Positions 1,764 to 56,655 of a stretch of DNA of 64,000 nt are shown here, piece after piece; within the stretch, counting starts at the first letter, position 1, and each line of letters starts with the position of its first letter. The stretch spans positions 160,001-224,000 of the forward strand of contig CAWBAT010000005.1 of assembly GCA_963786955.1 (NCBI GenBank), in the 5' to 3' direction. The notes under the pieces are model-generated. The model saw nothing but the letters and a program-made list of their open reading frames with translations, did not search any database and was not told the origin of the DNA. Position numbers and translations under genes: made by a program. The stretch comes from an uncultured Acidimicrobiia bacterium. GTDB taxonomy: Bacteria; Acidobacteriota; Terriglobia; Versatilivoradales; Versatilivoraceae.

Positions 1764-2882
1764 TTATTGAGTCTCATGCCTGAACTTGATCAATTTTCGA
1801 TAGATCCGGTTCAGCTCAACTTGATTGGCTTCTTTACTTTCGGAAGAATTGGCTGCGAAACGATACGTTCTATCCGCAAACTGTATCTTTAGTTTGTGGT
1901 CGAGTTCAATTTCAATGATGTCTGAGGGGGAATGTTTGAATGCATCTCCAGAATTTTCAAAAGGTAGGTATCTGATAGAACGACTTGAAATTTGTAACTG
2001 TCCCTTGCAGCTACCCAGGCGATGTTCATGAACGACGGGAAAGACTTCCGTTATCAGTGAATCTTCTTGAGTGCTCTCTGGGGGACTTGGTGCGTTCTGG
2101 ACAACGGGATCATGCAATTCAATGGGCGCGTCTCGAGGATCCACCTTTTTAGGCTCTGCAATCTGAAGTTCTTTCGATTCTCCCCCGGAAGACTGACTTT
2201 GATTCGATTCAACGACGGGTTGGTCGGGCAGATGGGGGGCGCGCACACGATGGGTCCAATGATTCAGCATTGCTAAAAATAACACAATACTGGCAACAAG
2301 TGCCGCTACTCTAACAACTCTTCTTAAGAGGTGGTTCACCCCATCCGTCTTCGGACCTACCCCCGAATCCTTGACTTTTGATAACTCCACCAGGCTGCTC
2401 TCTGGAGCAGAAGTGACCACAGGCAAGGGGCTGGCTTGCGTCACCCGTTCATTATCGGGGACATCCTTACGGGGTCCTCTAGGCTGCTTGAGTACTAGAT
2501 CTGCTTCATCAAAGACCTGGAAAGCACTCACGACACCTGTCTTGTCGTGGCTTGATTCCTGATCAACCAGAATTTGCCGGCTGAGTTCGAGGTAATCTCT
2601 GAAATTACGGTTCTGTGGCTCAAGCTGACAAAGAAATTGAAACGACTTTAAACAGTCGCTGTAACGCTCCTGATCAAATTGCTTGGTCGATTCATTCTTG
2701 AGGTTTTCAATTTGGATCTCGAGTTCTTCCAGTACTTTTTGGCCAGAGGGGCCGGAAGCTTGCGCCACAATCTTCATGAGCAGCCCATGGTCCCTGCTCT
2801 CGAAACAAGCCTTTACCTGTTGTATCTGTTCACTCGTTGTAGTCATAGCAAAGCAAGATGTTGCCCAAGCATTGCGTCTCAT
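1764..2882 (-). CDS. Hypothetical single-pass membrane protein (N-terminal TPR-like helices, C-terminal PH-like domain)
   Basis: 372-aa ORF with a TM segment VVRVAALVASIVLFLAML and a C-terminal HEHRLGSCKGQLQIS motif. Confidence 0.6.
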   Translation of the reverse strand: MRRNAWATSCFAMTTTSEQIQQVKACFESRDHGLLMKIVAQASGPSGQKVLEELEIQIENLKNESTKQFDQERYSDCLKSFQFLCQLEPQNRNFRDYLELSRQILVDQESSHDKTGVVSAFQVFDEADLVLKQPRGPRKDVPDNERVTQASPLPVVTSAPESSLVELSKVKDSGVGPKTDGVNHLLRRVVRVAALVASIVLFLAMLNHWTHRVRAPHLPDQPVVESNQSQSSGGESKELQIAEPKKVDPRDAPIELHDPVVQNAPSPPESTQEDSLITEVFPVVHEHRLGSCKGQLQISSRSIRYLPFENSGDAFKHSPSDIIEIELDHKLKIQFADRTYRFAANSSESKEANQVELNRIYRKLIKFRHETQ

Positions 2883-3412
2883 GCGGCGGCACAGTCTGCC
2901 CCCCCCTATCCGGGCAGAAGACCTCGAGACACAACAACCTATCTTAAATTCCTTTTTGAATAATCGTCGAGTAGAAAGGATTGAATGAGCTGTATTTTAG
3001 AGGCGTGGTTAAGTTGTTGTAAAATAAATGCCTTACCCGTCAGTTTCACATCTGCCTTAGTAGAATTTAGCCACCTGTGCAAGCTAATCTGGCCTTCATT
3101 GCTGGGAGCGCGGGCATCTTGCTCGCATTTCACCACGAGCGAACCCAATCCTCTAAAGGAAGGAAATGAAAACTCGTCCCCTCTGGAACGTTCAAAGGAA
3201 GGCGTTAACCTTCAGGCGTGGCCTTTCCCGTTTGCGACATTCCTATTTGTCATTGATCAGTTTCCATTTACCATTTTTCATTTACCCCTTTCAATTGAAA
3301 ATGAGAGATGAATATTGAACAACGGCAGATGATTCTCCATTGAAAGTCCCCTGAGAAGGTAGCGAGAAGCATTTTGGAAACCTCTGGTGTCAAGTCGAAT
3401 GGAGCTAAGAAA

Positions 3413-44994: not shown

Positions 44995-45410
44995 TTCTTA
45001 TTCCCCCTTACTTAAAGGGCGCCGGGGGATGTCCTGTTTTGTGAATTCTTCATTTGGCATTCGTCATTCAGCATTTATCATTTCTGACTTTAGACTCTTA
45101 ACCTTAGACCTTTGACCTATTTTCTGCTTTCTGCCTTCTGACTTTTGACCTCAGACCTCTGACTTTCGACGTTTAAGTTTGACCTTAGATCTTGGACAAA
45201 ATTTTTGCGTCCTTTGCGCTCTTTTGCGGCAATACTTGCTTTGACTTTTTCTTTAGGTTTTAGACTTTGGACTTTCGACCTTCGACCTTGGACCCTCGCT
45301 AATCTCCATTCGCCATTCGTCATTTCTGACTTTGGACTTTCAACCTTTGACTCTGAAACTCCGAACTCTTATCCCTGCCTTCTGCTTACTGCTTACTGCC
45401 TTCTGTCTTC
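44995..45410. repeat. Composite heptamer/nonamer repeat block
   Basis: Shares ~70 bp with 58375-58444; heptamer runs present. Confidence 0.8.
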
Positions 45411-45411
45411 T

Positions 45412-46605
45412 TCACCCCCGCAGTATCCCCATTCCATACTTGTTAGCCAGGCGGACTGCTCGAAGCGGGTAATAGAGAAACGAAAGCTTCGAAGGCAGCG
45501 AAAGGAGAGTCCAATCCGCCAGAGTTGGAGCCAGCGCAATGCTGAATGAATAACGTAACCCGTCACGCAGCCGCTCCCGGACGCGGAGATGAAACAAGGC
45601 AGCATTGAAGCCATCCGAGGGTTTGCCCAGGTCAGAGAATAACCAGGCGTAAACTCTTGTAGCCAGAGTTTCCACTACGGGTATCTTCTGCATCGCGATC
45701 AACATTTCGCTGGGAACCTCGGCTCCCAATAGATCGTTAGCCAGAAAGAGCCCCAGTAGCAGCATGCGCTCGCAACCCATGACTCTGGCCTGCTCCAGGA
45801 TCTTCTCCCATGCGAGATTTTTCTCGGCCGCGAGCAGACGAGCGATGTCGCAGATCCAACCCAGATTGAGCCAGAGATGCTTGGCGCCATGGACACAAAG
45901 AAGCAACAGCAAATCCTCCGAGGAGAGGGTCAAGACTTCCGTGCGGCAAAGCTGGACCGGATGCAATCGCCTACTCACATCGACCCACTCCAAAGGGAAA
46001 GCAAAGTCTTTGGGAGTGAGTTTGGAATGGAGTTCAACACAGATCTGGTTCTTCCCTTTGACAATTGGCCACTGACGAAGAGAAACAAGATAAGCCTCCT
46101 CTTGAGCTGGAGCCAAAGGGTACTGAGCTTGGTATCCCATAGTTGACAGCAGCGCTTTGGCACGCGGAAGATTTTCCTCTCCAAGAATGATGTCGAGGTC
46201 TCCGAACTGCCGAAAGGCCAGGTTTCCATAAGCCTTCACAGCTAAGGTAGGGCCTTTAAAGGGAATCGCCAGAATTCCGTGGGACTCCAGACGATTGAGG
46301 ATCTCCAGCAATTCCCCCGCTAGTAACAGGTTTGTTTTGGAAGTCTCGTGAAAACCCTTTTGTAGCTGGTCCAGAATGGCTTCAGGCACCGCTGCTCGAC
46401 AATTCGAATGGATGTGCCAATACAAGAGGGGCAGCAGACCATGGCGGGAGGCCGATTCGGTCAGCACGTCCCATTTGAGCCCTTTTTCGACGAGAGCATG
46501 TATTCGTTCGGTCCTCTCCGGATCGCTCCCAACCGAGGCAACCAGGACTAGTAGCTCATCTTCGGGCCGCAGAGCGATTCGCCTATTAGATCTGACGCTG
46601 ATCAC
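45412..46605 (-). CDS. Nucleotidyltransferase family protein (lasso-associated)
   Basis: FKGPTLA..Y....RQFGDLDI, VELH and HGAKHLW..L.WICD motifs. Confidence 0.88.
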   Translation of the reverse strand: MISVRSNRRIALRPEDELLVLVASVGSDPERTERIHALVEKGLKWDVLTESASRHGLLPLLYWHIHSNCRAAVPEAILDQLQKGFHETSKTNLLLAGELLEILNRLESHGILAIPFKGPTLAVKAYGNLAFRQFGDLDIILGEENLPRAKALLSTMGYQAQYPLAPAQEEAYLVSLRQWPIVKGKNQICVELHSKLTPKDFAFPLEWVDVSRRLHPVQLCRTEVLTLSSEDLLLLLCVHGAKHLWLNLGWICDIARLLAAEKNLAWEKILEQARVMGCERMLLLGLFLANDLLGAEVPSEMLIAMQKIPVVETLATRVYAWLFSDLGKPSDGFNAALFHLRVRERLRDGLRYSFSIALAPTLADWTLLSLPSKLSFLYYPLRAVRLANKYGMGILRG

Positions 46606-47026
46606 TTGTCACTCTTTCCTATCTTATTCCCCCTTAGTAAAGGGGGCGCCGGGGGATGTCCTGCTTTGAGGTTTTCTTCACTGGCACATGCTGTCCCCCT
46701 TTTGCACAAGGGGGGACTTCAGGGGGGATTGGCATTTATAATTTGTGACTTTTGACTTTCGACCTTGGACCTTTTGCCTCTGCTTTTGGCTTTCCCCGTG
46801 CCCCCGTGGCACGCTTCCCTGTTTATCCTCGCGCCCTTTGCGCTTTTTTGTGGCAAAAATTGTTCTTATCCTTTTCCAATCCGCGTTTATTCGCGTTCAT
46901 CCGCGGCTTATTTTTCTTTGTGTCTTTGCGTCCTTTGCGAGAGGTAGCTTTTCAATCTCAAATCGCCATTTTCCCTTTGGGACTCCGAACTCAGGACTCA
47001 AGACTCTAGACCTTTGACCGGGAACA

Positions 47027-49141
47027 TTATTTAACAACGCCCACGGCTCGCACAAAGCGCTCAACGTGGCTACCAGCTCCTGCCACTTGAAACCTCTCAC
47101 CTGCTTTATCTTCTCTCATCTGAGCCGCCCAGGATTGAGCATAATCCCCGCCTCGTGCCAGTAACTCCGCGTGACTTCCGGATTCAACAATCCGCCCGTC
47201 GGCCATCACGTGGATCACATCCGCATGCATGGCAGTGGTGAATCGATGCGTGATAATCAGCACCGTGCGCCCTTGGGCCAACCTGCTGAAGCGGTCGAGC
47301 CAGTCCGCTTCCGCCCAAGGGTCCATGGCACTGGTGGGCTCATCCAAGAGGATGATAGGCGCCTGCCGGAAGAATGCCCGTGCCAGGGCGATTCGTTGCC
47401 ACTCTCCCACGCTCAGCTCTGCACCATTCACAAACCACTTCCCGAGAGGATTGTCATATCTTTGAGGTAGGCGGTGGACAATGTCTTCTGCTCCGGCAGT
47501 TCGTGCGGCCTCTTCTATCGATTTCTGTGAGTTGACACGAGACATCTCCACCTCGACCCACTCTTCGGCTCCCCTCTCCCCAACACGGGAGAGGGGCTGG
47601 AGGGTGAGGGGGAAACCCCACGCGCTGCCTGCCTTCGCCAAATCTCCCAAAGCAATGTTTTCGGCTACGGTATTGTTAAAGTGGACAGGCTCCTGGAAAA
47701 GCACCGTGAGCTGCTTGCGTAAATCCTCAATCGGTAGATCACGCAAATCAGTCCCGTCCAATTCAATCAGGCCTTCGTCAGGATCATAAAAGCGGCAGAG
47801 TAACTTAATCAGAGTACTCTTCCCTGAACCGTTGAGCCCCACGACAGCCACTTTCTTCCCAGTAGAGATATTCAAAGAAAAATCCCATAGCGCAGGTTGC
47901 TGGCTGCCGGGATAGCGGAAAGTCACATGCCGGAAGCTGATCCCTTCTTCTTGATTACCTCCCTCTCCTCTTGGGAGAGGGTGTTCGACGAGCGGGTGAG
48001 GGGAGGAAGACCACGGATCAATAATCTTGCGCGAATCGGATTCTTGCTCAGATATGATTTGGGTAGTGGCGGTTCGTATCGGAATGGGGTGAGGTCCGTC
48101 AATTACCTTTGGCTTCAGCGCCAGGAACTCAAACAAATTGCCCAGAAACAGGCTGTTTGAATACAGGTGTCCGACGTTCTGCAAAAGCGATCGCATCAAC
48201 TGCTGTCCTTGATTGAAGGCCTGGGTGAAGAGTGCCAGGTCGCCCAGTGAAACCAGGCCTTGGACGGCTTTCCACACCATCCAACCCAGGGCTGCGCCAG
48301 TAATCAACAGTCCGAAGCTGCCGGCAGCCAGCTCAGCCAGACCCTGTTCTCCAGCCATCTGCACTCGTTCCTGCCGCAGTTTCCAGCGAAGAGCCTGGTA
48401 AGCCGCCTGAAAGCGCGGACCCATTCCAAAGAGCCGCAGCTCTGCGGCAGTCTCCCGGCTGGTGAGCAGCCAGTCATAGTACCAGCTACGGCGTTCTTCG
48501 GAAGTGCTCTTCAGTCTCCATTGGTGTTGGATCAGGGTATAGCGGAGCACAACATAAAGTGCCGGAAGAGTGCTGACGAAAACCGCCGCAGGCAGCCAGG
48601 CCCCGTAAGGAACCAGCACTGCGCCCATCGCCAGCAAAGTAATTCCGTTTTGGAGCAGACTACCGAGACTTTCGAGTAATTCGACAGGCCGGTAACTGGC
48701 TTCATCGCGGGCGCGATGCAGGTGGTCATAGAACTCGGGCAGATCATAAAAAGCCAGGTCGAGTTCCACGGATTTGGTGTGGACGAGTCCCGTGACATGA
48801 TCTTTCAGGAGGTCAGCCTGGATTGTCCTAACCCAGACCGTTGCGCTGCGCAGTAACTCTGTCAGCAAGAGCACGGCACCCATCAACCCCATGGGAACAA
48901 GCACCGGGCGGAAGGTTTGCCAATCGCCATGAGAACCGAGGACAGGGACGAGGCTATTCACCAGCCACCGGGTCAGATAAACCGTAACAACAGGCAACAG
49001 CCCCTGGAACACCAGAAGGACTGCCCAAGCTATTGTCCAGCCGCGCGTCGCTCTCCAAGCCAGGCGCAATGCTCGGGGAAGATTGGGCAGCTGGGCGGCA
49101 GCCTTTCTTAATTTGCCAATGAGGAGTGGAAGATTTTGCAA
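47027..49141 (-). CDS. ABC exporter (TMD+NBD) with two in-frame repeat insertions
   Basis: GLNGSGKS, LSVGEWQR, LLDEPTS and ITHR motifs. Confidence 0.93.
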   Translation of the reverse strand: MQNLPLLIGKLRKAAAQLPNLPRALRLAWRATRGWTIAWAVLLVFQGLLPVVTVYLTRWLVNSLVPVLGSHGDWQTFRPVLVPMGLMGAVLLLTELLRSATVWVRTIQADLLKDHVTGLVHTKSVELDLAFYDLPEFYDHLHRARDEASYRPVELLESLGSLLQNGITLLAMGAVLVPYGAWLPAAVFVSTLPALYVVLRYTLIQHQWRLKSTSEERRSWYYDWLLTSRETAAELRLFGMGPRFQAAYQALRWKLRQERVQMAGEQGLAELAAGSFGLLITGAALGWMVWKAVQGLVSLGDLALFTQAFNQGQQLMRSLLQNVGHLYSNSLFLGNLFEFLALKPKVIDGPHPIPIRTATTQIISEQESDSRKIIDPWSSSPHPLVEHPLPRGEGGNQEEGISFRHVTFRYPGSQQPALWDFSLNISTGKKVAVVGLNGSGKSTLIKLLCRFYDPDEGLIELDGTDLRDLPIEDLRKQLTVLFQEPVHFNNTVAENIALGDLAKAGSAWGFPLTLQPLSRVGERGAEEWVEVEMSRVNSQKSIEEAARTAGAEDIVHRLPQRYDNPLGKWFVNGAELSVGEWQRIALARAFFRQAPIILLDEPTSAMDPWAEADWLDRFSRLAQGRTVLIITHRFTTAMHADVIHVMADGRIVESGSHAELLARGGDYAQSWAAQMREDKAGERFQVAGAGSHVERFVRAVGVVK

Positions 49142-49205: not shown

Positions 49206-50198
49206 TCACAACCTGCAGTGAAGCGCCTTCTTGAATTTGACTTCAGAAGAAAGGTTTTCGAGGATGGCTTCTTTTACAGCGGGCAAAAGCGAAAGATCGT
49301 GTGGATAACTCAATTGATAAAAGATGGGTAAATTCACAACGCGGCTTAAACAGCTGAACTCAGTCGAAAGCATGTCCCGGTCACCAATATCCAGCTTATA
49401 AGCGTATCGCACTAGCTCCAGAAAGCTTTCTCTCGGTGAAATCGGAATGATACTGATAGGCCCATTATCTTCTGAAGGTTTAGAGGTGTTGAGGAAATAA
49501 ATCCTGCGTAAAATGACTGGATCGTCTTGAAAAAGAAGTGAATGATCTATTAAGTCAATTCTCTTCTTGCGCGTATAGTGGGCAACATCACAATATTCTG
49601 GTTCTCTATTAAAGAGGGAATCGACAATTTCCTTCCAAAGCCGCAGTCCTGGATATCCCGGAAATGCAAGAAGCTCTCCTTTGCTTTCTTCGAGCACCAG
49701 GCAGTCATCGGTAATAAAAGGGAATCCATCTTTCGCAAAACTTGCCGCCAAAGTAGATTTTCCCGCTCCTGTTTTACCGATGAATGCGATAGCACCCGTT
49801 TCACTCACTACTGAGCTGGCATGCAGCACAAGTTTTCCTCTTTTGCTGAGCGCAAGAGGGAATACTTGATCTAGAAACAAGTGTCTTATCGTCTCCAACG
49901 GGACTTCAGGGACGGGTGTACATTGAACATTCTCTCCGGTTCCGGAAATGTAAAAATCGGCTAGATCAGGGAAGCGGAGGAGGTAACGGTCCCCTAGTTT
50001 GCCAAAGTAAAGCCAAACCTCCTCTTCCGTTGGCCCCCATTGGTGAAACCATGGAACGAGGATCGAATTCTGCTCTCTTGGAGACAAAAGTTCAAAATTA
50101 AACTCCGGTTTGGTTTTGTCGGTGAGAAGCAATTCAGGCAACTGGATACTGCTCTCGATAACTGTTCCGTAAATTTTATGAAGCATCGACTCCTGCAA
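49206..50198 (-). CDS. HPr-kinase-like lasso peptide kinase
   Basis: LHAS, GKTGAGKST and TDD motifs; cluster context. Confidence 0.85.
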   Translation of the reverse strand: MQESMLHKIYGTVIESSIQLPELLLTDKTKPEFNFELLSPREQNSILVPWFHQWGPTEEEVWLYFGKLGDRYLLRFPDLADFYISGTGENVQCTPVPEVPLETIRHLFLDQVFPLALSKRGKLVLHASSVVSETGAIAFIGKTGAGKSTLAASFAKDGFPFITDDCLVLEESKGELLAFPGYPGLRLWKEIVDSLFNREPEYCDVAHYTRKKRIDLIDHSLLFQDDPVILRRIYFLNTSKPSEDNGPISIIPISPRESFLELVRYAYKLDIGDRDMLSTEFSCLSRVVNLPIFYQLSYPHDLSLLPAVKEAILENLSSEVKFKKALHCRL

Positions 50199-50346: not shown

Positions 50347-51511
50347 CTATATTGTGTAACGCGTAACTACCTCCGCCACAAACGTGGCAGCTTCACTTGG
50401 TGAGCGAAAGAGCTTGGGATGATGCTCGTATGCCGCATTCTCTATTTCCGCAAGGCATCTTTTGCCATCACACAGGCTCAAGACTGTAAGCCGAGCTTCT
50501 CCCCTTGATGTAAGCTTTGGCTTGAAATCGGGCTGGGTTCTCTGGAGATCTCTCTTGCCGAGCAACATTCCTTTCCAGGTAGAGTGAGAAAACCAATCTT
50601 TTCTGAAGCCTCGCTCTTTAGTTGATTCCGATGGTTTTTCAAATACCTCTAGTTCCCATGCAACGACCGAGGCCCCAGGTAGAAAATGAATCTTGATCTC
50701 AATCAAATTCCCTTCCGTAACTTTGATGGCCCGTTCAATTGGAAAGAAAAGATGTTTTCTCTGAATGGTATCAGGTCGAAGTGGTGAATTTGTGACCGCA
50801 AAGCTTTCTGACAACTGGGCTGAGAACCAGCCTGCAATTCCGTGAAGTCTACCCGTCCTTCTGGCTGTAGCAGAAGCTTGTAGGCCGAATGGTTTGGCTG
50901 ACACTGTTGTGAGATCCAGAGAAGCCCCCATAACCGGCTCGCTTAGCAATTGTCCGGGTTGAAACGTAAAGCGGTAAGCGCAGTTGACAGCTACTGAACG
51001 TCCAGGTGAGAAATTTAAACCGGTCGACGAGTCGTTCCAGAAGTCGATCTGAGCAAAACTTTCGTCAGCATTCGACAGGCGCAAGGAACAAATCAACCCG
51101 CGCTGGAATCAGTCTTCCCCCAGTTTTCAAAAAGCGGTCGCGAGCGTCACTGAGAGAATCCAATAGGCCAAATTCAGGACCGAATCCAATCTGGTCAGCA
51201 ATGACGACATCAACCTTTTCTGGAAGGTCCACCCGCATAGAAAGGTCCTTGATGAAGACCACTCTATCCTGATACCCGTTGATCTCGAAAAGTTGGCGGG
51301 CCAGTTCAATGATTGCCCCTTCCTCAATCGAATAAATTCGTCGAGCTCCCGCCTGGCAGGCCAAAAGGCCGAGAATGCCTGTTCCCGCTCCAAGATCGAG
51401 AACAATATCTCCGGGTTTGACAACCTGAGCGATTGCTTGGCGAAAGGCCGAGACACGTACCTCATCTGCCAAGTAGTGGCGGTGCTCATGGAGAATCGCT
51501 GAGAAATCCAT
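50347..51511 (-). CDS. PRMT-fold SAM methyltransferase with a putative C-terminal PqqD-like domain; frameshift near 51070
   Basis: VLDLGAGTGIL, LPEKVDVVI, ARDRFLK.GG.LIP, G.LHG.AGWF and TNSP motifs; C-terminal LCDGKRCLAEI. Confidence 0.8.
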
Positions 51512-51546: not shown

Positions 51547-51717
51547 TCATACCATGCCCATCCCGGATAGGCCGTCGGGAACTGAGCCATTTTGCCCCCG
51601 AGTCAGCTTGGAAACGCTTCCGTAATCCAGCAATCTGGGGCTAGCATACACTTTCTTTCCCTTATTTTTTTCTTCACGTTCTTGCATCGTTGGATGGATA
51701 TCCGGTAACTGGTGCAT
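51547..51717 (-). CDS. Lasso peptide precursor (56 aa; core GQNGSVPDGLSGMGMV)
   Basis: AGGAGA RBS; hand translation MHQLPDIHPTMQEREEKNKGKKVYASPRLLDYGSVSKLTR-GQNGSVPDGLSGMGMV shows YxxPxL, Thr(-2), Gly1 and Asp8. Confidence 0.9.
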   Translation of the reverse strand: MHQLPDIHPTMQEREEKNKGKKVYASPRLLDYGSVSKLTRGQNGSVPDGLSGMGMV

Positions 51718-51743: not shown

Positions 51744-53696
51744 TCAGACTGCATGAAGAGCGACAGCCGCCTTAAGCGTCTCACCCTGACGCGGCAAATC
51801 TTGCCTGTTCAAAAAAATGGTGTTGAACCAAAGTTCGATGCCAAAAATCATCCATAGTGGCCAAATGTGTCTAACATCATCCCCCTTGTTGTAGAATTGT
51901 GTCATTTCCTGATACATATGCCGCACACTGTTTTCGGCCACCCATCCCTGAGATACTAGGCTTAGCGAATCCCAGAGCTGCTCGGCGCCGAGAGTCTGGA
52001 ACGTCTCGACAAAAAGATGGGTGAAATCCGCTTTTGTGAGTCGCTGGCGTACTGTTTCAGGCAAATAACCTTGGCATGCCTGGCGAAGAACGAATTTGTT
52101 TTGGTTACATTGGAAGCGCTGGTCTTCTGGCAGTGCCAGTGCAAATTCAACAACCCGCCGATCATGAAGTGGGTGCCGCCCTTCTAATCCATGCCACGAT
52201 GCTTCGCGTTCTTCCATCTCGCTGGCGTGGACCACAAAACCATTAGTCGCTGCCAGATAGATTTCCCAGGGGGCAAATCCTAACGGTGATGGGCGCATCG
52301 CCTTTGTTTCAATTCGCTCAGCAAGTCGTGTTCGACCAGCAAAGCCTCTCTCGATCCAGCCGGGAGTAGGCCGTCTGTTCTCCTTTCCAAGCATTCGCCT
52401 AACCCTCGAGCGCGCACTCTGGGGAAGCAGTGGCCAGAGGCCGTAATGTAATAGTCGAGACAAGGTAACAGCAGCTCCTTCAGTTCGGAACACAAATCCG
52501 AGCTCTCGAACTAATTCTGGAACTTTGAGCCGCTGCAAAAGGTCGGCATAGCGGTACCGGCTGCCCCCCAACCACTCATCACCACCCACTCCACTCAGCA
52601 CGACGCGGATCCCTCTGTCCCTAACCAGTTGGTTCACCGGGTTCGCAGTGCCGCCATTAGGATAACCGGGAAAATCTTGGTATCGCTGTGTTCGCTCGGA
52701 ATATAAGCTGAGTTCGCCGACGTGATGGCGAGTCGAGTGCCACCTGAGATGCCATATCTTGATAACGTCATTTATATAGGCGCTCTCATCGCAGGGATAA
52801 CCGGGATAAATTGTAGAAAAAGCCTCTATCTCGGAGATACAAGAACTTCCTTCCTCTGCAAGGGAAGCGGCCACACCTGCAACTGACGACGAATCCAGCC
52901 CTCCACTCAGCGACACTCCCACTGGCGTGGTGCTCCGCAGACGACAGCGCACAGCCTCTCTGAAAATCTCCAGAAAGTGTTCAGCATAGTCTTCGTCCGA
53001 CTCGTAGCGAATCTCTGGGCATGGATCGATGGACCAGTAGCGTTGTTTCCGGAATGAACTGGGACTGAGTCGCAAGTAGTGGGCTGGTGGCAGCCGGAAG
53101 ACATTTTGAAAGAGCGTCTCCTCTTGATGAGTGATAGCACTCGCCAAATATTCGGCAATCATACCCTCATTCGGTTTACGTCGAACTAAGGGGTCGATAA
53201 AAAGCGGAGGCAACTCGGAGGAAAATAGAAATGCCCGGCCCGTGTTCACATAGTAGAACGGCTTTAATCCTAGAAAGTCTCGAGCGCAGAAAAACACCTG
53301 TTGCCGCTTGTCCCAAATTGCAAAAGCAAAGTCACCAATGATTCGCTTCGGGCACTCTTCTCCCCAGCAATCGTAGGCCTTCAGGACTAGTTCAGCATCT
53401 GTATCATCTCGAAGCCTGCCGCCTTTGGCTTCAATGGCAGCTTTCAACTCGTCTCGATTATCGACACGCCCGTCAAGCGTAAGACAGAGATTGCCGGTTT
53501 CATCAAGCAGGGGCTGTTTCTCGTGAAGGGCCTCAGGCGTCGTGCAAAGCATTTGATGACCAAGCCCGACCGGACCGTCAATCCAGTACCCCACCCCGTC
53601 AGGCCCGCGGTGTGAAATCGCGTCGGTCATCCGCTGCAGTAACCTGCGATCAACGGGAGCCCCATCCAAATTATAGATGCCAGCAATGCCGCTCAT
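51744..53696 (-). CDS. Lasso cyclase (asparagine synthetase-like, C protein)
   Basis: MSGIAG (no N-terminal Cys), SLSGGLDSS and SGVGGDE; adjacent to B1, B2 and the precursor. Confidence 0.9.
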   Translation of the reverse strand: MSGIAGIYNLDGAPVDRRLLQRMTDAISHRGPDGVGYWIDGPVGLGHQMLCTTPEALHEKQPLLDETGNLCLTLDGRVDNRDELKAAIEAKGGRLRDDTDAELVLKAYDCWGEECPKRIIGDFAFAIWDKRQQVFFCARDFLGLKPFYYVNTGRAFLFSSELPPLFIDPLVRRKPNEGMIAEYLASAITHQEETLFQNVFRLPPAHYLRLSPSSFRKQRYWSIDPCPEIRYESDEDYAEHFLEIFREAVRCRLRSTTPVGVSLSGGLDSSSVAGVAASLAEEGSSCISEIEAFSTIYPGYPCDESAYINDVIKIWHLRWHSTRHHVGELSLYSERTQRYQDFPGYPNGGTANPVNQLVRDRGIRVVLSGVGGDEWLGGSRYRYADLLQRLKVPELVRELGFVFRTEGAAVTLSRLLHYGLWPLLPQSARSRVRRMLGKENRRPTPGWIERGFAGRTRLAERIETKAMRPSPLGFAPWEIYLAATNGFVVHASEMEEREASWHGLEGRHPLHDRRVVEFALALPEDQRFQCNQNKFVLRQACQGYLPETVRQRLTKADFTHLFVETFQTLGAEQLWDSLSLVSQGWVAENSVRHMYQEMTQFYNKGDDVRHIWPLWMIFGIELWFNTIFLNRQDLPRQGETLKAAVALHAV

Positions 53697-54286
53697 ATCC
53701 GGTTCACTTCCTGCAAGAGGGTTGGATCAAAAGGCGAGAAGCGCTCGTGAATGTCGCTGCCCTCATTGAGAGGTTGTCCGAAGCACTCCACCCAGGCGTG
53801 GGCTTCAAGTAAAGCTGCTTCTTTACGCACACCGATTCGCAAGGTGCTCTCCATCCCATTCCGCCGCAAAAACCACCAGGTAACAAGCGACTGCTTGAGG
53901 CAGTTGGCCCGAAAGGGGCCGTGGTTAGCCGCGAGCCTCACCACTCTGGCAACGAGGGCTGCCTTGGCTTCGAGATCGGAGGGGCGAGAGCCTTTAGAGT
54001 CCACGGGAGTCAGTGGTTCGCTAGGGACACACCCCGGCACGCTCCCGCTTGCCACCCCTCTCAAGAGGGGACTTCTAGCCATGTCACCACCCCCTAGTCC
54101 TTCGAACAGTTCCTCCCCCTGTCTGTGTTCGAATGAAGGAGAAGCCCTTTGGGCTAGAAAAGAATAGATCCGCCGGAAGCCAAGGATGCGCATGGCCAAG
54201 GCCGCGAGTGGGAGCAGCAGCAAGGCCTGGAAAAAGATTTGCTTTTCTAAACGGCTCAGTTGAATAAGCTTGAAGAGTTTATTCAT
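53693..54286 (-). CDS. Lasso leader peptidase (B2)
   Basis: CLKQSL, LRIGVR and AHAWVE transglutaminase-like motifs. Confidence 0.92.
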   Translation of the reverse strand: MNKLFKLIQLSRLEKQIFFQALLLLPLAALAMRILGFRRIYSFLAQRASPSFEHRQGEELFEGLGGGDMARSPLLRGVASGSVPGCVPSEPLTPVDSKGSRPSDLEAKAALVARVVRLAANHGPFRANCLKQSLVTWWFLRRNGMESTLRIGVRKEAALLEAHAWVECFGQPLNEGSDIHERFSPFDPTLLQEVNRI

Positions 54287-54563
54287 CCTTAATCTCGACC
54301 AATTCCTGGTCCACTAGTTTTTGAAGTAAATCTTCCAGGTCTTTTCGAAGAATCTCGGGCTCCACCTCATATTCTGACAACAAGGTGTCATACGCTTCTT
54401 GCAGCGAGGGAGCTGTCGTCAAGACAGTCCACATGCGAGTACCCATTTCATCCAGTCCAAAATAGCGTTCGCTTTTAAGGCTGAGTATCACCGATTCACT
54501 ACCAAGAACATTGATGAGAGTATCCGATGGGATGGAAACGCGTGTTGTATTCGTTATGGTCAT
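54279..54563 (-). CDS. PqqD-family RRE (lasso B1)
   Basis: ESVIL...YFGLDE.G..MW and L..EYEV....L..DL..L...L pattern. Confidence 0.92.
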   Translation of the reverse strand: MTITNTTRVSIPSDTLINVLGSESVILSLKSERYFGLDEMGTRMWTVLTTAPSLQEAYDTLLSEYEVEPEILRKDLEDLLQKLVDQELVEIKDE

Positions 54564-54961
54564 AATCTTCTCCTGAAAGGACTCACTGCATAACTCGCGG
54601 AGGACATAGAAAATGGGCGGAGTGCACGCGGATAAACACGGGAACGATTAACCGCCAAGAACGCCAAGTACGCAGAGAAAAATGAGCCGCAAATGGAAGA
54701 TGGCGATTGGCGATTGAAAAGCTAACTCTCGCAAAGAACGCAGAGTGCGCAAAGAGAAATAAAAGAGTAAGTGTCGTCAATTAGACCTTGGGCCTTGTAC
54801 TACGGACTTTTGACCTCCTAACTTGCAATTGCTTTTTGCGTTTTTTGCGCCCTTATAGTTGTGCAATATTGCTTATTCTCTTGCCCCTGGCAGGGAAGGA
54901 GCCCGAAGGGCGACTGGAATGCCAGGGGCAAGAGAACTCATTTCGACAGCAGGAGCCCCTC

Positions 54962-55786
54962 TTGATCAACAACACCAGTTTGCAACGTTGGGACCGCATC
55001 AGTGCTAAATCCATTGACACTCAATTTAAGACCGCCATGCAGCGGGGGCTGAATTGTTCCCCTTTCGAAGCCCAGATCATGGTCGAAAAAGTCCATGAAC
55101 TTTATGGACCCTTGTTCGACAACTCAACCACTGTGCAGCCCGGACAGATTCAACTCATGGTAGTGGATGCCTCTGTGCCTCCCGGTGTTCCGCTGTCCCA
55201 AGCTGCTCAGAAGCTGGCCACCCTCACCCTGCTGGATAAAGAGGAAGACAACCAGATCCAGCAGCGGCAAACCATCCCGGCCCTGCGGCAACATCGTCTG
55301 ATGCGAGTTGCCGAAGAAGCCTTCCAGCAAGGGGGTCTGCTGACTTTGGAGGATCTGGCCCTGTTGTTTAATTGCGGCCTGCGCACTTTGGTTGGCGACT
55401 TGGCCGCATTGCGCCAGCAGAATCTGGTGCCGCCTCTTCGTTCCACCGTCAAAGACATCGGTCGAGCTGTAACCCATCGCCGCCTGATTGTCTCACTGTG
55501 GCTGGAAGGCAAAGAGTATTCCGACATCGCCTTGCATTCTCATCACAGCGTTTCTTCAGTGGCCAACTACGTGGAAAAATTCAAACGCTGTGCCGCCTTG
55601 CTCCAACATGGCTTTGATCTGACGACCACCGCTTTCCTGATTCGCTTGTCCGCCCCTTTGGTGGAGCAATTCCGCCAGTTGCATCAGACGGCCAAACCGG
55701 CGGTCCACCGGCAGCAGGAACTCTTGGGCTTCTTAAAAAAAAGCTCAGCCGATCTGCCGAGCCGCCCAACCCGGAGGTCCCAGTGA
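54962..55786 (+). CDS. DUF1670-like protein A
   Basis: PGQ, R..EEAFQQGGLLT.EDL, P.R..KDIG..VTHR and HS..SV.NY; AGGAG before the TTG at 54962. Confidence 0.75.
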   Translation: MINNTSLQRWDRISAKSIDTQFKTAMQRGLNCSPFEAQIMVEKVHELYGPLFDNSTTVQPGQIQLMVVDASVPPGVPLSQAAQKLATLTLLDKEEDNQIQQRQTIPALRQHRLMRVAEEAFQQGGLLTLEDLALLFNCGLRTLVGDLAALRQQNLVPPLRSTVKDIGRAVTHRRLIVSLWLEGKEYSDIALHSHHSVSSVANYVEKFKRCAALLQHGFDLTTTAFLIRLSAPLVEQFRQLHQTAKPAVHRQQELLGFLKKSSADLPSRPTRRSQ

Positions 55787-56532
55787 ATCCTCCGGCCCAA
55801 TCCATAAAACATTACCGCTCTGCTCAAAACCGCTTTCTCCGCCCTTCCATCCAGCGGTTTTTGCAAAGCCAGTGCCCCAAGCTTTTTGGCCCCTTGCTTG
55901 CCGAACGTTTGGCGGAAAAAATTGTCGAGCTAGTTGAAAAACAGTTGCCCCATAAAGATCATCTGCAGCCGGGCCAGATGGTCTGGAATGCGGTCTCTCA
56001 ACAATCCAGACCTAACAGCCCGAACCTGCAATTGCTCCCAGTCCTGTTGACGTTGGTCGATCCTTCCGATGTCGAGCAACTGGCAAAGGGCTCCTCGATG
56101 ACAACCATCGCTAAAAAGGCCATCGCCCGTATTTGCTGCGAGGCCCATCAACAAGGCGCCTTGTTGACCATGCGGGATATCGGCCTTTTTTGCTGGCGGC
56201 AAAACTCGAGGCTTTCCTCCTTGCGGGCTGCCTGGGAAAAAGAACATGACACCACTCTCCCACACAGCGGCAGTTTGCAGGACTTTGGCTCTTGTATCTC
56301 TCACAAAAAAACCATCGTCAAAAAGGCCATCCTTGACAAAAAAGACCCGAAACGGATCGCTCTCGAAACCAAACATTCACAAAAGGCCGTGGACCGCTAT
56401 CTGAAGGATTTCCATCGGGTCAAAACCTGTTTCCAACACAATCAAAGCCTCGAGTTCATCGCTCAAGTCACTGCCTTGTCACCTTTCCTGGTCAAACAAT
56501 ACGTGGAGATAATCAATGCCTCTAATCTCTAA
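55783..56532 (+). CDS. DUF1670-like protein B
   Basis: PGQMVW, RI..EA.QQGALLT.RD, G..QDFG..ISHK and HS..AVDRY; overlaps A by 4 nt. Confidence 0.8.
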   Translation: MNPPAQSIKHYRSAQNRFLRPSIQRFLQSQCPKLFGPLLAERLAEKIVELVEKQLPHKDHLQPGQMVWNAVSQQSRPNSPNLQLLPVLLTLVDPSDVEQLAKGSSMTTIAKKAIARICCEAHQQGALLTMRDIGLFCWRQNSRLSSLRAAWEKEHDTTLPHSGSLQDFGSCISHKKTIVKKAILDKKDPKRIALETKHSQKAVDRYLKDFHRVKTCFQHNQSLEFIAQVTALSPFLVKQYVEIINASNL

Positions 56533-56655
56533 AAAACAACTTGATACGCAATATTGCCTAATTTTTGCGGCGATAGCTGCTTTAGGCTTTTGACTTTCGA
56601 CCTTAGACCTTAAACCTGCCTTCTGTCTTTTGACTCCGGACTCTTGGAACTCTGA

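What the first reader, a model, noticed from the sequence alone, without database searches (positions are those of the whole stretch)
50347..51511. Lasso cluster with a PRMT-fold methyltransferase that appears to carry its own leader-binding domain, while the core has no Arg
Seen: the gene directly downstream of the precursor encodes a protein with motifs matching eukaryotic protein-arginine methyltransferases (VLDLGAGTGIL, LPEKVDVVI, ARDRFLK..G.LIP, beta-barrel G.LHG.AGWF...TNSP). The Arg-binding parts differ: the double-E loop reads ADQIGFGPE and the THW loop reads TIQR. The tail (ARLTVLSLCDGKRCLAEI...FVAEVV) resembles PqqD/RRE helices. The core has no Arg, Lys or His; the only nearby Arg is at -1. 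Established: the lasso methyltransferases I know act on the C-terminal carboxylate or are PIMT-like aspartimide formers, not PRMT-fold enzymes. Inference: a new leader-directed RiPP methylation, for example on the Asn/Gln amide, Met sulfur, backbone or C-terminus.
Basis: partly seen in the sequence, partly recalled or inferred. Interest (0 to 1): 0.85.

Follow-up and report, generated by a model that had tools for sequence, protein, structure and literature searches.

The report
PRMT-fold methyltransferase of lasso clusters
The gene is a frame-broken copy of a widespread, unstudied methyltransferase that looks like an arginine methyltransferase but has lost the arginine-binding residues and is found almost only inside lasso-peptide gene clusters that also carry a peptide kinase.

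Summary
Window 50347-51511 (-) encodes, in two frames, a 387-aa SAM methyltransferase with a PRMT fold. It lies 35 nt downstream of a lasso precursor with core GQNGSVPDGLSGMGMV, which has no Arg, Lys or His.

The protein belongs to a large family: at least 993 homologues and 194 genome hits. In 54 of 54 classifiable loci the remodelled-pocket, tail-bearing form sits among lasso or kinase genes, usually in the order cyclase, precursor, MT, HPr-like kinase. Ten of ten tail-less relatives with canonical PRMT motifs have no lasso genes nearby.

The lasso clade replaced the arginine-binding residues: first Glu to Asp, second Glu to Ala/Phe/Tyr, THW His to Ile. Only 16 of 48 linked cores contain Arg.

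The 77-aa tail is a three-helix bundle. Its best matches are PqqD, but they are weak (Z 6.4; E 0.098), and the RRE beta-sheet is missing. Leader binding could not be tested.

Only ring Ser/Thr (48/48), the ring Asp/Glu (47/48) and the C-terminus are universal. I therefore favour methylation of an oxygen, either the kinase-made phosphate or a carboxylate.

The frameshift is probably an assembly error, because 3 of 12 RND genes in this genome are also fragmented. I found no printed description.

The parts
54279..54563 (-). B1, a discrete PqqD-family RRE protein (94 aa)
   Evidence: Pfam PqqD, 56.3 bits against a cut-off of 23.4. NCBIfam lasso_PqqD_Bac E 2.6e-14, below its cut-off.
53693..54286 (-). 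B2, the lasso leader peptidase (197 aa)
   Evidence: Pfam Transglut_core3 E 3e-22. NCBIfam lasso_biosyn_B2, 86.2 bits against a cut-off of 33.
51744..53696 (-). C, the lasso macrolactam cyclase (650 aa)
   Evidence: Pfam Asn_synthase plus GATase_7. NCBIfam lasso peptide isopeptide bond-forming cyclase, 528.3 bits against a cut-off of 525.
51547..51717 (-). Precursor A (56 aa). The leader ends ...YASPRLLDYGSVSKLTR and the core is GQNGSVPDGLSGMGMV, with a Gly1-Asp8 ring expected.
   Evidence: Sequence, with AGGAG 8 nt upstream of the ATG. Leader motif. NCBIfam lasso_leader_L3 above its cut-off. Aligns with 38 precursors from related loci.
51065..51511 (-). Methyltransferase, first frame: SAM-binding Rossmann domain up to the frame break (residues 1 to about 147)
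51064..51072 (-). Site of the +1 frame break. The window has seven bases where a 90-95% identical metagenome contig has six and reads through in one frame.
50581..51069 (-). Methyltransferase, second frame: dimerisation arm and PRMT beta-barrel (residues about 148-310)
   Evidence: Pfam PRMT_C. Model of the 77%-identical homologue and Foldseek matches to PRMT1/2/6.
50350..50580 (-). C-terminal tail (residues 311-387): conserved linker RTxPxFxPKL(T/S), then three helices carrying LxLCDGxRxLxEIE ... FVAEVVTRY
   Evidence: Weak PqqD likeness.
49206..50198 (-). HPr-kinase-like peptide kinase (330 aa). The H...GxxGxGKS...DD motif is present.
   Evidence: Pfam Hpr_kinase_C E 0.0063. NCBIfam HprK_rel_A E 6.8e-11, below its cut-off. 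The motif residues are as listed for BsfK in PMC10368454. A homologue lies next to the MT in 60 of 79 loci.
47027..49141 (-). ABC exporter (704 aa)
   Evidence: Pfam ABC_tran E 7e-32..
45412..46605 (-). NTP_transf_5 nucleotidyltransferase (397 aa), the family that decorates the phosphate in pseudomycoidin-type clusters
   Evidence: Pfam PF14907 E 1e-62. Present in 25 of 79 related loci. The role is taken from passages of PMC8498205.

Best explanation
What it is. The region is the methyltransferase gene of a kinase-type lasso-peptide cluster, arranged B1-B2-C-A-MT-K-ABC with an NTase beyond. The enzyme is about 387 aa. It has an intact SAM-binding Rossmann domain, the PRMT dimerisation arm and beta-barrel, and a 77-aa C-terminal three-helix tail.

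Origin (inferred). It descends from bacterial PRMT-like enzymes. In the lasso clade the guanidinium-binding residues were replaced: first Glu of the double-E loop to Asp106; second Glu to Phe114 here and Ala or Tyr elsewhere; THW His to Ile249; the Met48 equivalent to Tyr13. It is therefore no longer an arginine methyltransferase.

Mechanism (inferred). It methylates the lasso precursor, working together with the adjacent kinase. This most likely happens on the linear, leader-bearing peptide before B2/C processing, as is known for the other lasso tailoring enzymes that act on precursors.

Acceptor (my odds). The acceptor should be a group present in every linked core.
- Phosphate that the kinase puts on a ring Ser/Thr: 0.30
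- C-terminal carboxylate: 0.25
- Ser/Thr hydroxyl or the Asp/Glu carboxylate: 0.15
- Met or Cys sulfur: 0.10
- Nitrogen (amide, backbone, Arg/Lys): 0.15
- Not the peptide at all: 0.05

Tail. It is a degenerate PqqD-like winged-helix remnant. It may hold the leader or the B1-leader complex (about 0.45), or it may dock the kinase.

Frameshift. The break in this copy is more likely an assembly error (about 0.65) than a real inactivation.
For: Shown:
- Fold and family: pLDDT 93.6; PRMT2/6/1, E about 1e-28.
- Size of the family: at least 993 homologues of full length. 194 of 600 pattern hits in genomes were confirmed. The tail profile finds 1299 representative proteins at E<=1e-3 and 406 at E<=1e-10.
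- Context in 79 loci: kinase in 60, cyclase in 59, B1 in 54.
- Link between motifs and context: 69 loci could be classified. Ten others were left out because they are truncated or frameshifted. All 54 with the remodelled pocket and tail have lasso or kinase genes in reach. All 10 tail-less loci with canonical E..EE and SHW motifs have none.
- The two groups separate at a branch with 100% support (quick tree, midpoint root).
- Linked cores (48 in 46 loci): Arg in 16, none of R/K/H in 18, Ser/Thr within the first seven residues in 48, Asp/Glu at 7-9 in 47, Met in 41, Cys in 33, Asn/Gln in 35.
- One metagenome ORF carries barrel, tail and an HPr-kinase domain on a single chain (P0211).
- BsfK, a lasso kinase, phosphorylates ring Ser3 with B1's help (passages of PMC10368454). 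An NTase decorates the phosphate in pseudomycoidin (passages of PMC8498205).
- The window copy keeps every column that is invariant in the other 24 aligned homologues.
- Assembly quality: 3 of 12 RND-transporter genes in this genome are split into 2, 3 and 5 pieces.
- A 90-95% identical contig reads through the break in one frame.
Against:
- The acceptor is inferred only from what is universal in the cores and from gene order.
- The pocket keeps an invariant Asp106 and Asp16, which sit oddly with an anionic acceptor.
- The invariant Arg251 aligns with a Lys that PRMT1/6 also have after THW in the PRMT6 alignment. It is therefore not clearly a new phosphate or carboxylate hook.
- For the tail, the profile comparison with the clusters' own B1 proteins is negative (probability 0.9%). 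Pfam PqqD does not hit the window's tail. All structural Z-scores lie in the range that the tool calls common for helical models.
- The break is not at a homopolymer, and no run of the same strain was found. A real pseudogene therefore cannot be excluded.
Confidence: 0.7

Rival explanations
1. The tail is not a leader-binding RRE. Leader recognition is supplied by the separate B1 protein, as for the kinase BsfK. The tail instead serves oligomerisation or docks the kinase or B1.
For: - A discrete B1 is encoded in the window and in 54 of 79 loci.
- BsfB1 accelerates BsfK (passages of PMC10368454).
- The models show no three-stranded sheet.
- hhalign against the clusters' B1 proteins is negative.
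- The tail also resembles generic winged helices: PKMT_2nd in 2 of 25 tails, a lead score of 0.80 in the Atlas, and a 2076-aa protein with 16 HxlR/PKMT_2nd-like repeats.
- One MT-kinase fused ORF exists.
Against: - PqqD is the first hit in three independent searches. It is also the commonest Pfam family among the tails: 4 of 25, best E 0.0028.
- The tail keeps the LxLxDG(K/R)xxxxxI turn of PqqD and a conserved PxL(T/S) stretch where PqqD has the peptide-pairing strand.
- The tail travels with lasso context.
Confidence: 0.4
2. The window's copy is a true pseudogene. This organism makes an unmethylated lasso peptide, or none at all.
For: - The frame break is in the assembled sequence and not in a homopolymer.
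- The same-genus genome G002 also shows a split, more distant homologue.
- The cluster is patchy among relatives: 3 of 41 genomes, own genome included.
Against: - There is only one break, and every family-invariant residue is kept.
- All the other cluster genes are intact.
- The assembly has many frame breaks elsewhere.
- A close relative's contig is in frame at this spot.
Confidence: 0.3
3. The enzyme is still a nitrogen methyltransferase of the PRMT or PrmA kind. It would act on Arg or Lys of the peptide where present, or on a cellular protein, for example as self-protection.
For: - The sister group keeps canonical motifs. Three of its members sit in lasso or kinase clusters. The two with an identified precursor have Arg-bearing cores (L052 and L062).
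- An acidic Asp106 is retained.
Against: - 32 of 48 linked cores have no Arg, and 18 of 48 have none of Arg, Lys or His, the window's core among them.
- Both Glu of the double-E loop and the THW His are replaced throughout the 55-member clade.
- The gene sits between precursor and kinase in most loci.
Confidence: 0.08

Closest known systems
Eukaryotic type I protein arginine methyltransferases (PRMT1, PRMT2, PRMT6)
   Same: Rossmann SAM domain, dimerisation arm and beta-barrel. Sequence E 4e-34 to PRMT6. Foldseek E about 1e-28, TM 0.62-0.69 normalised to the query. Motif I, the SAM-carboxylate Arg (Arg19) and the ribose-binding Glu (Glu63) align.
   Different: The double-E loop reads D...F (D...A in most members) instead of E...E. 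THW reads TIQ. An extra 77-aa C-terminal tail is present. The gene context is a RiPP cluster, and most linked substrates have no Arg.
Bacterial tail-less PRMT-like proteins (Nitrospirales, Nitrospinota and Desulfurellaceae loci L066, L068, L069, L071-L077)
   Same: They are the nearest sequence relatives outside the lasso clade (38-40% identity over residues 3-301/338) and share the fold motifs.
   Different: They keep E..EE, SHW and the Met48 equivalent. They lack the tail and have no lasso genes within the fetched flanks.
Lasso C-terminal O-methyltransferases LasF and StspM (lassomycin type)
   Same: They are SAM-dependent tailoring enzymes of lasso precursors that act before leader removal (passages of PMC8498205 and PMC9266682). 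They could share the acceptor if this enzyme makes a C-terminal methyl ester.
   Different: The enzyme family is unrelated: StspM was modelled on mitomycin 7-O-methyltransferase according to PMC9266682. No such Pfam family matches here.
PIMT-type lasso methyltransferases (LihM, TceM; aspartimide formation)
   Same: They are methyltransferases encoded in lasso clusters that act on a conserved ring residue (passages).
   Different: They belong to the PCMT family. The Pfam PCMT model gives only E 0.16 and 12.2 bits against a cut-off of 20.3 on the intact homologue. They also act on the threaded lasso, not the precursor.
Kinase-type lasso clusters (paeninodin, pseudomycoidin, Bradymonas bsf)
   Same: A, B1, B2, C, an HPr-like kinase, an NTP_transf_5 nucleotidyltransferase and an ABC exporter. 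BsfK phosphorylates ring Ser3 with B1's help.
   Different: The passages I read of those papers do not mention a methyltransferase in those clusters. Here a PRMT-fold enzyme sits between precursor and kinase. Most linked cores end in a Met-rich tail and Cys-Leu rather than Ser.
PqqD / RiPP recognition element (PF05402; PDB 3g2b, 5sxy, 5v1u, 6jx3)
   Same: Three helices superpose: Z 6.4, rmsd 2.5 A over 50 residues, 26% identity to 3g2b. The LxLxDG(K/R)...I turn is shared.
   Different: No beta-sheet is present and there is no significant sequence match. The domain sits at the C-terminus of an enzyme of a fold that did not come up as RRE-fused in the passages of PMC12710340 that I read.

Membership tests
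Protein arginine methyltransferase (PRMT) | Class I SAM-binding Rossmann domain with motif I GxGxG | tested here: met
   VLDLGAGTGIL aligns with PRMT6 motif I. Rossmann methyltransferase Pfam models match.
Protein arginine methyltransferase (PRMT) | PRMT beta-barrel with dimerisation arm | tested here: met
   Pfam PRMT_C, 38.4 bits against a cut-off of 27. Model and Foldseek matches.
Protein arginine methyltransferase (PRMT) | Double-E loop with two Glu that hold the guanidinium | tested here: not met
   Asp106 stands for the first Glu and Phe114 for the second (Ala or Tyr in relatives)..
Protein arginine methyltransferase (PRMT) | THW loop | tested here: not met
   The loop reads T-I-Q. Ile at the His position is near-invariant in the lasso clade.
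Protein arginine methyltransferase (PRMT) | Methylates arginine | not testable with these tools
   Indirect evidence only: 32 of 48 linked cores lack Arg.
RiPP recognition element / PqqD (PF05402) | Match to the family profile above its cut-off | tested here: not met
   The window's tail has no PqqD hit at E<=10. Four of 25 tails match, best E 0.0028. The PDB profile search gives PqqD first at E 0.098.
RiPP recognition element / PqqD (PF05402) | Winged helix-turn-helix: a three-stranded sheet followed by three helices | tested here: inconclusive
   The three helices are present and superpose on PqqD (Z 6.4). No sheet appears in either model.
RiPP recognition element / PqqD (PF05402) | Binds the leader peptide | not testable with these tools
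Lasso peptide biosynthetic gene cluster | Precursor with a lasso leader, B1 (RRE), B2 (peptidase) and C (cyclase) | tested here: met
   The precursor, B2 and C pass NCBIfam cut-offs, and B1 passes the Pfam PqqD cut-off.
Lasso C-terminal O-methyltransferase (LasF/StspM type) | Homology to small-molecule O-methyltransferases of the mitomycin 7-O-MT kind | tested here: not met
   No such Pfam family appears among the matches at E<=10.
PIMT-type lasso methyltransferase | Match to the PCMT family (PF01135) | tested here: not met
   12.2 bits against a cut-off of 20.3 on the intact homologue P0002.

The most novel reading that the evidence does not exclude
The enzyme caps the phosphate that the neighbouring kinase places on a ring Ser/Thr, giving a phospho-methyl diester on a lasso peptide. 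To my knowledge (recalled, not searched for) this modification has no precedent in ribosomal peptides. It would be made by a PRMT scaffold retooled from nitrogen to oxygen methylation and tethered to its substrate by a remnant of a PqqD domain.
Probability: 0.2. Interest if true: 0.85.

Novelty: new variant of a known kind. Interest (0 to 1): 0.6.

Why it matters
Lasso peptides are a heavily mined class of natural products, and each new tailoring step widens their chemistry and the engineering toolbox. This is a large enzyme family that looks undescribed. It spans hundreds of clusters in Acidobacteriota, Nitrospirota, Rokuibacteriota, Pseudomonadota and other phyla.

The family has a familiar eukaryote-like fold whose substrate pocket has been rebuilt. 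It also has a ready-made comparison set: tail-less and tail-bearing relatives that keep the canonical pocket. That makes it a tractable case of how an arginine methyltransferase scaffold is redirected to a new acceptor.

The linked peptides, with Met-rich tails that mostly end in Cys-Leu, are themselves an unexplored group. The question can be settled with one co-expression and MS/MS experiment on an intact orthologue.

Tried and rejected
- Reading through the break with GAAT as one step shifted the frame at four places. I used TGCT instead, which occurs once in frame.
- Programmed +1 frameshifting was rejected. All aligned relatives are single ORFs, and a near relative's contig is in frame.
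- Reads: no run holds more than 0.15 of the sampled words and no RNA holder is listed. The four runs I laid cover the stretch only in pieces from relatives, and none bridges the break from the same strain. The frameshift therefore could not be settled.
- Tail profile against the clusters' B1 alignment by hhalign: probability 0.9%.
- Pfam and NCBIfam have no family for the tail.
- A search for free-standing relatives of the tail (49-158 aa) gave 35 proteins. None carries a PqqD annotation, and they look like gene fragments on short contigs.
- The ESM Atlas gave leads only, with scores of 0.88 or less.
- Co-fold of the L001 methyltransferase, SAM and its precursor: the queue was full three times and the tool was then withdrawn. 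Nothing was folded.
- Earlier findings of this scan were not open.
- Three papers were not held, and their surveys of lasso co-occurring genes may bear on novelty: Zhu 2016 JBC, Tietz 2017 and Barrett & Mitchell 2024. I opened no supplements.
- The 62-nt inverted repeat that brackets the cluster core was considered as a mobile-cassette boundary. It belongs to a local repeat family with six matches on the same contig, so I did not pursue it.
Full report
THE OBSERVATION

On the minus strand the window holds a compact operon:
- B1, PqqD family (54279-54563)
- B2, transglutaminase-like peptidase (53693-54286)
- C, lasso cyclase (51744-53696). It scores 528.3 bits against the 525-bit cut-off of the NCBIfam cyanobacterial lasso cyclase model.
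- a 56-codon precursor (51547-51717)
- the two overlapping ORFs of the finding (51065-51511 and 50347-51096)
- an HPr-kinase-like gene (49206-50198)
- an ABC exporter (47027-49141)
- an NTP_transf_5 nucleotidyltransferase (45412-46605)

The precursor has an AGGAG 8 nt upstream of its ATG. Its leader is ...KKVYASPRLLDYGSVSKLTR, which fits YxxPxLxxxGxxxxxTx and passes NCBIfam lasso_leader_L3. Its core is GQNGSVPDGLSGMGMV.

THE FRAME BREAK

The first ORF stops at ...LAPVEC*. The second frame continues with ...ADESFAQIDFWN. Reading one four-letter step at that spot gives a 387-aa protein. It aligns without a gap to 387-aa homologues, the best at 77% identity over 100% of its length.

In a sediment metagenome, a contig 90-95% identical to the window reads ..VECAESF.. 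in one frame. It has six bases where the window has seven. No run of the same strain was found; the best held 0.15 of the sampled words.

The genome is 5.65 Mb in 9 contigs. Of its twelve RND-transporter genes, nine are whole and three are broken into 2, 3 and 5 pieces. Frame breaks are therefore common in this assembly. The window copy keeps every residue that is invariant in the other 24 aligned homologues. I put an assembly error at about 0.65 and a recent real frameshift at about 0.3. Either way, the family is a single ORF.

WHAT THE PROTEIN IS

- Pfam gives Rossmann methyltransferase models for the N-terminal part and PRMT_C above its cut-off for the C-terminal part.
- The joined protein matches PRMT6 chains at E 4e-34 over residues 9-278.
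- An AlphaFold2 model of the 77%-identical intact homologue P0002 is confident (mean pLDDT 93.6). Foldseek returns PRMT2, PRMT6 and PRMT1 at E about 1e-28.
- The SAM-binding elements align: motif I, the Arg that holds the SAM carboxylate (Arg19) and the Glu after strand 2 (Glu63).
- The arginine-binding elements do not align. In HMMER's alignment to PRMT6, the first Glu of the double-E loop is Asp106 and the second is Phe114. T-H-W is T-I-Q.

THE FAMILY AND ITS NEIGHBOURS

The word-indexed search returned 993 proteins at E<=0.001. The best 120 are 372-433 aa long, at 51-77% identity and 95-100% coverage. Sources name them, if at all, 'protein arginine N-methyltransferase 1', 'PrmA' or 'SAM-dependent methyltransferase'. 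NCBIfam has no model for them.

In one-genome-per-species contigs, 194 of 600 pattern hits were confirmed and 79 loci were fetched. Searching those loci with the window's own cluster proteins found the kinase in 60, the cyclase in 59, B1 in 54, B2 in 36, the nucleotidyltransferase in 25 and the ABC exporter in 24 of 79. Many loci are cut short by contig ends. The usual order is cyclase, precursor, methyltransferase, kinase.

The loci come from Acidobacteriota, Rokuibacteriota, Nitrospirota, Pseudomonadota, Binatota, Planctomycetota, Actinomycetota and Myxococcota. Among 41 relatives of the window's genome, itself included, only 3 have a match. The cluster is therefore patchy, as RiPP clusters usually are.

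TWO KINDS OF PRMT-LIKE ENZYME

I tabulated pocket motifs for 69 loci and the window. Ten loci were left out because the gene is truncated by a contig end or frameshifted: L026, L036, L038, L048, L058, L061, L063, L064, L078 and L079.

- Lasso clade: 54 loci and the window. The first acid is Asp (Glu in three Binataceae-type loci). The second Glu is replaced by Ala, Ser, Tyr, Phe, Gly or Thr. The THW loop reads (I/M/L/V)-x-R. Tyr or Phe stands at the Met48 position (Leu in L027). The C-terminal tail is present. All 54 loci have lasso or kinase genes in the fetched DNA.
- Tail-less canonical group: 10 loci (Nitrospirales, one Nitrospinota, one Desulfurellaceae). They keep E..EE, SHW and Met, lack the tail, and have no lasso genes.
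- In-between group: 5 loci. L046 and L055 have canonical motifs and a tail but lie on short contigs. L054 has canonical motifs and a tail and sits next to a kinase and a nucleotidyltransferase. L052 has partly canonical motifs and a tail in a full lasso cluster, with the core AGKGKTRQDGPEGIPKTKV. L062 has canonical motifs and no tail, also in a lasso cluster, with the core GTSANVTDAGVRQAC.

A quick maximum-likelihood tree separates the 55 remodelled sequences from the 15 canonical ones at a branch with 100% support. The careful search did not finish, and the root is a midpoint only.

My reading, which is an inference: a PRMT-like enzyme with a tail was recruited to kinase-type lasso clusters while it still methylated Arg. 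One lineage then rebuilt its pocket for another acceptor.

WHAT THE ACCEPTOR MIGHT BE

I collected 48 precursors from 46 loci, the window included, with the leader motif. Three chance matches were dropped: L007 at 11100, L040 at 1426, and L074.

| Feature of the core | Cores with it (of 48) |
|---|---|
| Arg | 16 |
| None of Arg, Lys, His | 18 |
| Met | 41 (within the last six residues in 37) |
| Cys | 33 |
| Asn or Gln | 35 |
| Ends in Cys-Leu | 31 |
| Ser or Thr in the first seven residues | 48 |
| Asp or Glu at positions 7-9 | 47 |

A family with a near-invariant pocket should act on something every substrate has. That leaves the ring Ser/Thr, or what the kinase makes of it, the ring Asp/Glu, the C-terminal carboxylate, or the backbone.

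The ring acid is needed by the cyclase. Ring Ser3 is the site that the lasso kinase BsfK phosphorylates, with B1's help (passages of PMC10368454). In pseudomycoidin the nucleotidyltransferase goes on to decorate the phosphate (passages of PMC8498205). The methyltransferase and kinase genes are adjacent in most loci. One metagenome ORF, P0211, carries barrel, tail and an HPr-kinase domain on one chain, though this could be a gene-calling artefact.

Phosphate, carboxylate and thioether need no catalytic base. That fits the loss of the Glu pair.

I therefore rank the acceptors as follows: phosphate methyl ester 0.30; C-terminal methyl ester 0.25; another oxygen 0.15; nitrogen 0.15; sulfur 0.10; not the peptide 0.05. 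None of this is shown. The retained Asp106 and Asp16 argue somewhat against an anionic acceptor.

THE TAIL

Residues 311-387 are among the best conserved in the family...RTxPxFxPKL(T/S)xxGEARLxVLxLCDGxRxLxEIExEV...LFxSxxEAAxFVAEVVTRY. In the full model they form two short helices, a linker and three helices at 335-346, 353-363 and 371-385. Modelled alone, the three helices are confident and the first 36 residues are not.

PqqD comes first in three searches, never significantly:
- Profile against PDB sequences: 5sxy, E 0.098, over the LxLxDG(R/K)...I turn.
- Foldseek: 3g2b, E 1.1.
- All-against-representatives structural search: 3g2b, Z 6.4, rmsd 2.5 A, 50 residues, 26% identity. The lasso B1 proteins TbiB1 and FusB1 follow at Z 5.0 and 4.9, ranks 19 and 30. 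The tool warns that Z under about 8 is common, and under about 13 for helical models.

PqqD is also the commonest Pfam family among 25 tails scanned one by one (4 of 25, best E 0.0028). It does not hit the window's own tail.

Evidence against:
- hhalign with the clusters' own B1 proteins gives 0.9% probability.
- The three-stranded sheet that forms half of the RRE's peptide cleft is absent.
- Generic winged-helix families (PKMT_2nd, HxlR) turn up as well.

The tail profile finds 1299 representative proteins at E<=1e-3. The full-length ones listed (about 372-386 aa) carry the tail at the very C-terminus. I conclude that the tail is probably a remnant of a PqqD-like winged helix. Whether it binds the leader is open (about 0.45). 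The co-fold that would have tested this could not be run.

COMPARISON WITH WHAT IS KNOWN

The lasso methyltransferases in the reviews I read in passages are two kinds. One is the C-terminal O-methyltransferases LasF and StspM. The other is the PIMT-type enzymes that make aspartimide (PMC8498205, PMC9266682, PMC13352647). Neither family matches here.

Seven full-text searches combined 'lasso peptide' or 'lasso' with: arginine methyltransferase; PRMT; HPr kinase plus methyltransferase; Acidobacteria plus kinase plus methyltransferase; Nitrospira; RiPP recognition element plus fused; and SAM-dependent methyltransferase plus phosphorylat. None found a description of this enzyme. Of the two 'PRMT' hits, the one I opened was a file extension; the other I saw only as a listing. 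The single 'arginine methyltransferase' hit I also saw only as a listing.

Three relevant papers are not held and I opened no supplements. A mention in a co-occurrence table cannot be excluded.

VERDICT

The claimed built-in RRE is only weakly supported. The window's own copy is broken, probably by the assembly. It is a new variant of a known kind, a lasso tailoring methyltransferase from an unexpected fold with an unknown acceptor. Interest 0.6.

Noticed in passing
Related loci L002-L067 (precursor genes listed); window 51547-51717 for comparison: 31 of 48 precursors linked to this methyltransferase end in Cys-Leu, and 37 of 48 have Met within the last six residues (for example ...MMMMCL). 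The window's core belongs to a smaller group with the motif PDGxSGMxM and no Cys (also L001, L027, L056 and L057). A Met/Cys-rich tail could be a soft-metal (copper) ligand set, but that is only a thought.
   Followed up: partly
Loci L052 (8845-9027 and 9971-11122) and L062 (4988-5149 and about 2096-3025): PRMT-like enzymes that keep canonical or near-canonical arginine-binding motifs sit in lasso clusters whose cores contain Arg. They are candidates for true arginine-methylated lasso peptides.
   Followed up: partly
Protein P0211 (407 aa): A single ORF holds the PRMT barrel, the tail (residues 106-192) and an HPr-kinase C-terminal domain (296-342). It is either a natural methyltransferase-kinase fusion or a gene-calling artefact.
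   Followed up: no
Window 46924-46985 and 54684-54745: A 62-nt inverted repeat, 85% complementary, brackets exactly the ABC-to-B1 block. The element has six matches in the genome, all on this contig within about 85 kb.
   Followed up: partly
Window 45051-45412, 46726-47019, 54780-54829 and 56581-56646: The intergenic regions around the cluster are filled with degenerate heptamer tandem repeats of the type GACCTTN, at 14-nt register in the repeat finder. The region 45000-45499 is also low in G+C (0.448) with strongly negative AT skew.
   Followed up: no
Window 54788-55786 and 55783-56532 (+): Two tandem, overlapping DUF1670 genes (E 8e-39 and 1e-47) are transcribed divergently from the cluster.
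   Followed up: no
Own genome G000, contigs C6, C8 and C9 (places listed): Three of twelve RND transporter genes are split into 2, 3 and 5 in-order pieces. This suggests frequent indel errors in this 9-contig assembly. Other 'frameshifts' in this genome should be read with that in mind.
   Followed up: partly
Window 47027-49141 (-): In the ABC exporter, the ABC_tran match spans residues 420-604 for a 137-position profile, and NCBIfam models match in two stretches. There seems to be an insertion inside the nucleotide-binding domain.
   Followed up: no
Protein P0192 (2076 aa): A giant protein matches the middle of the tail profile 16 times. Pfam sees HxlR-like and PKMT_2nd winged-helix repeats in it.
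   Followed up: no
G002:C20:28361-29483 (loci L084, L085): The same-genus genome carries a more distant homologue (47% and 29% identity to P0002 for its two pieces). It is also split into two pieces at about residue 121-126.
   Followed up: no
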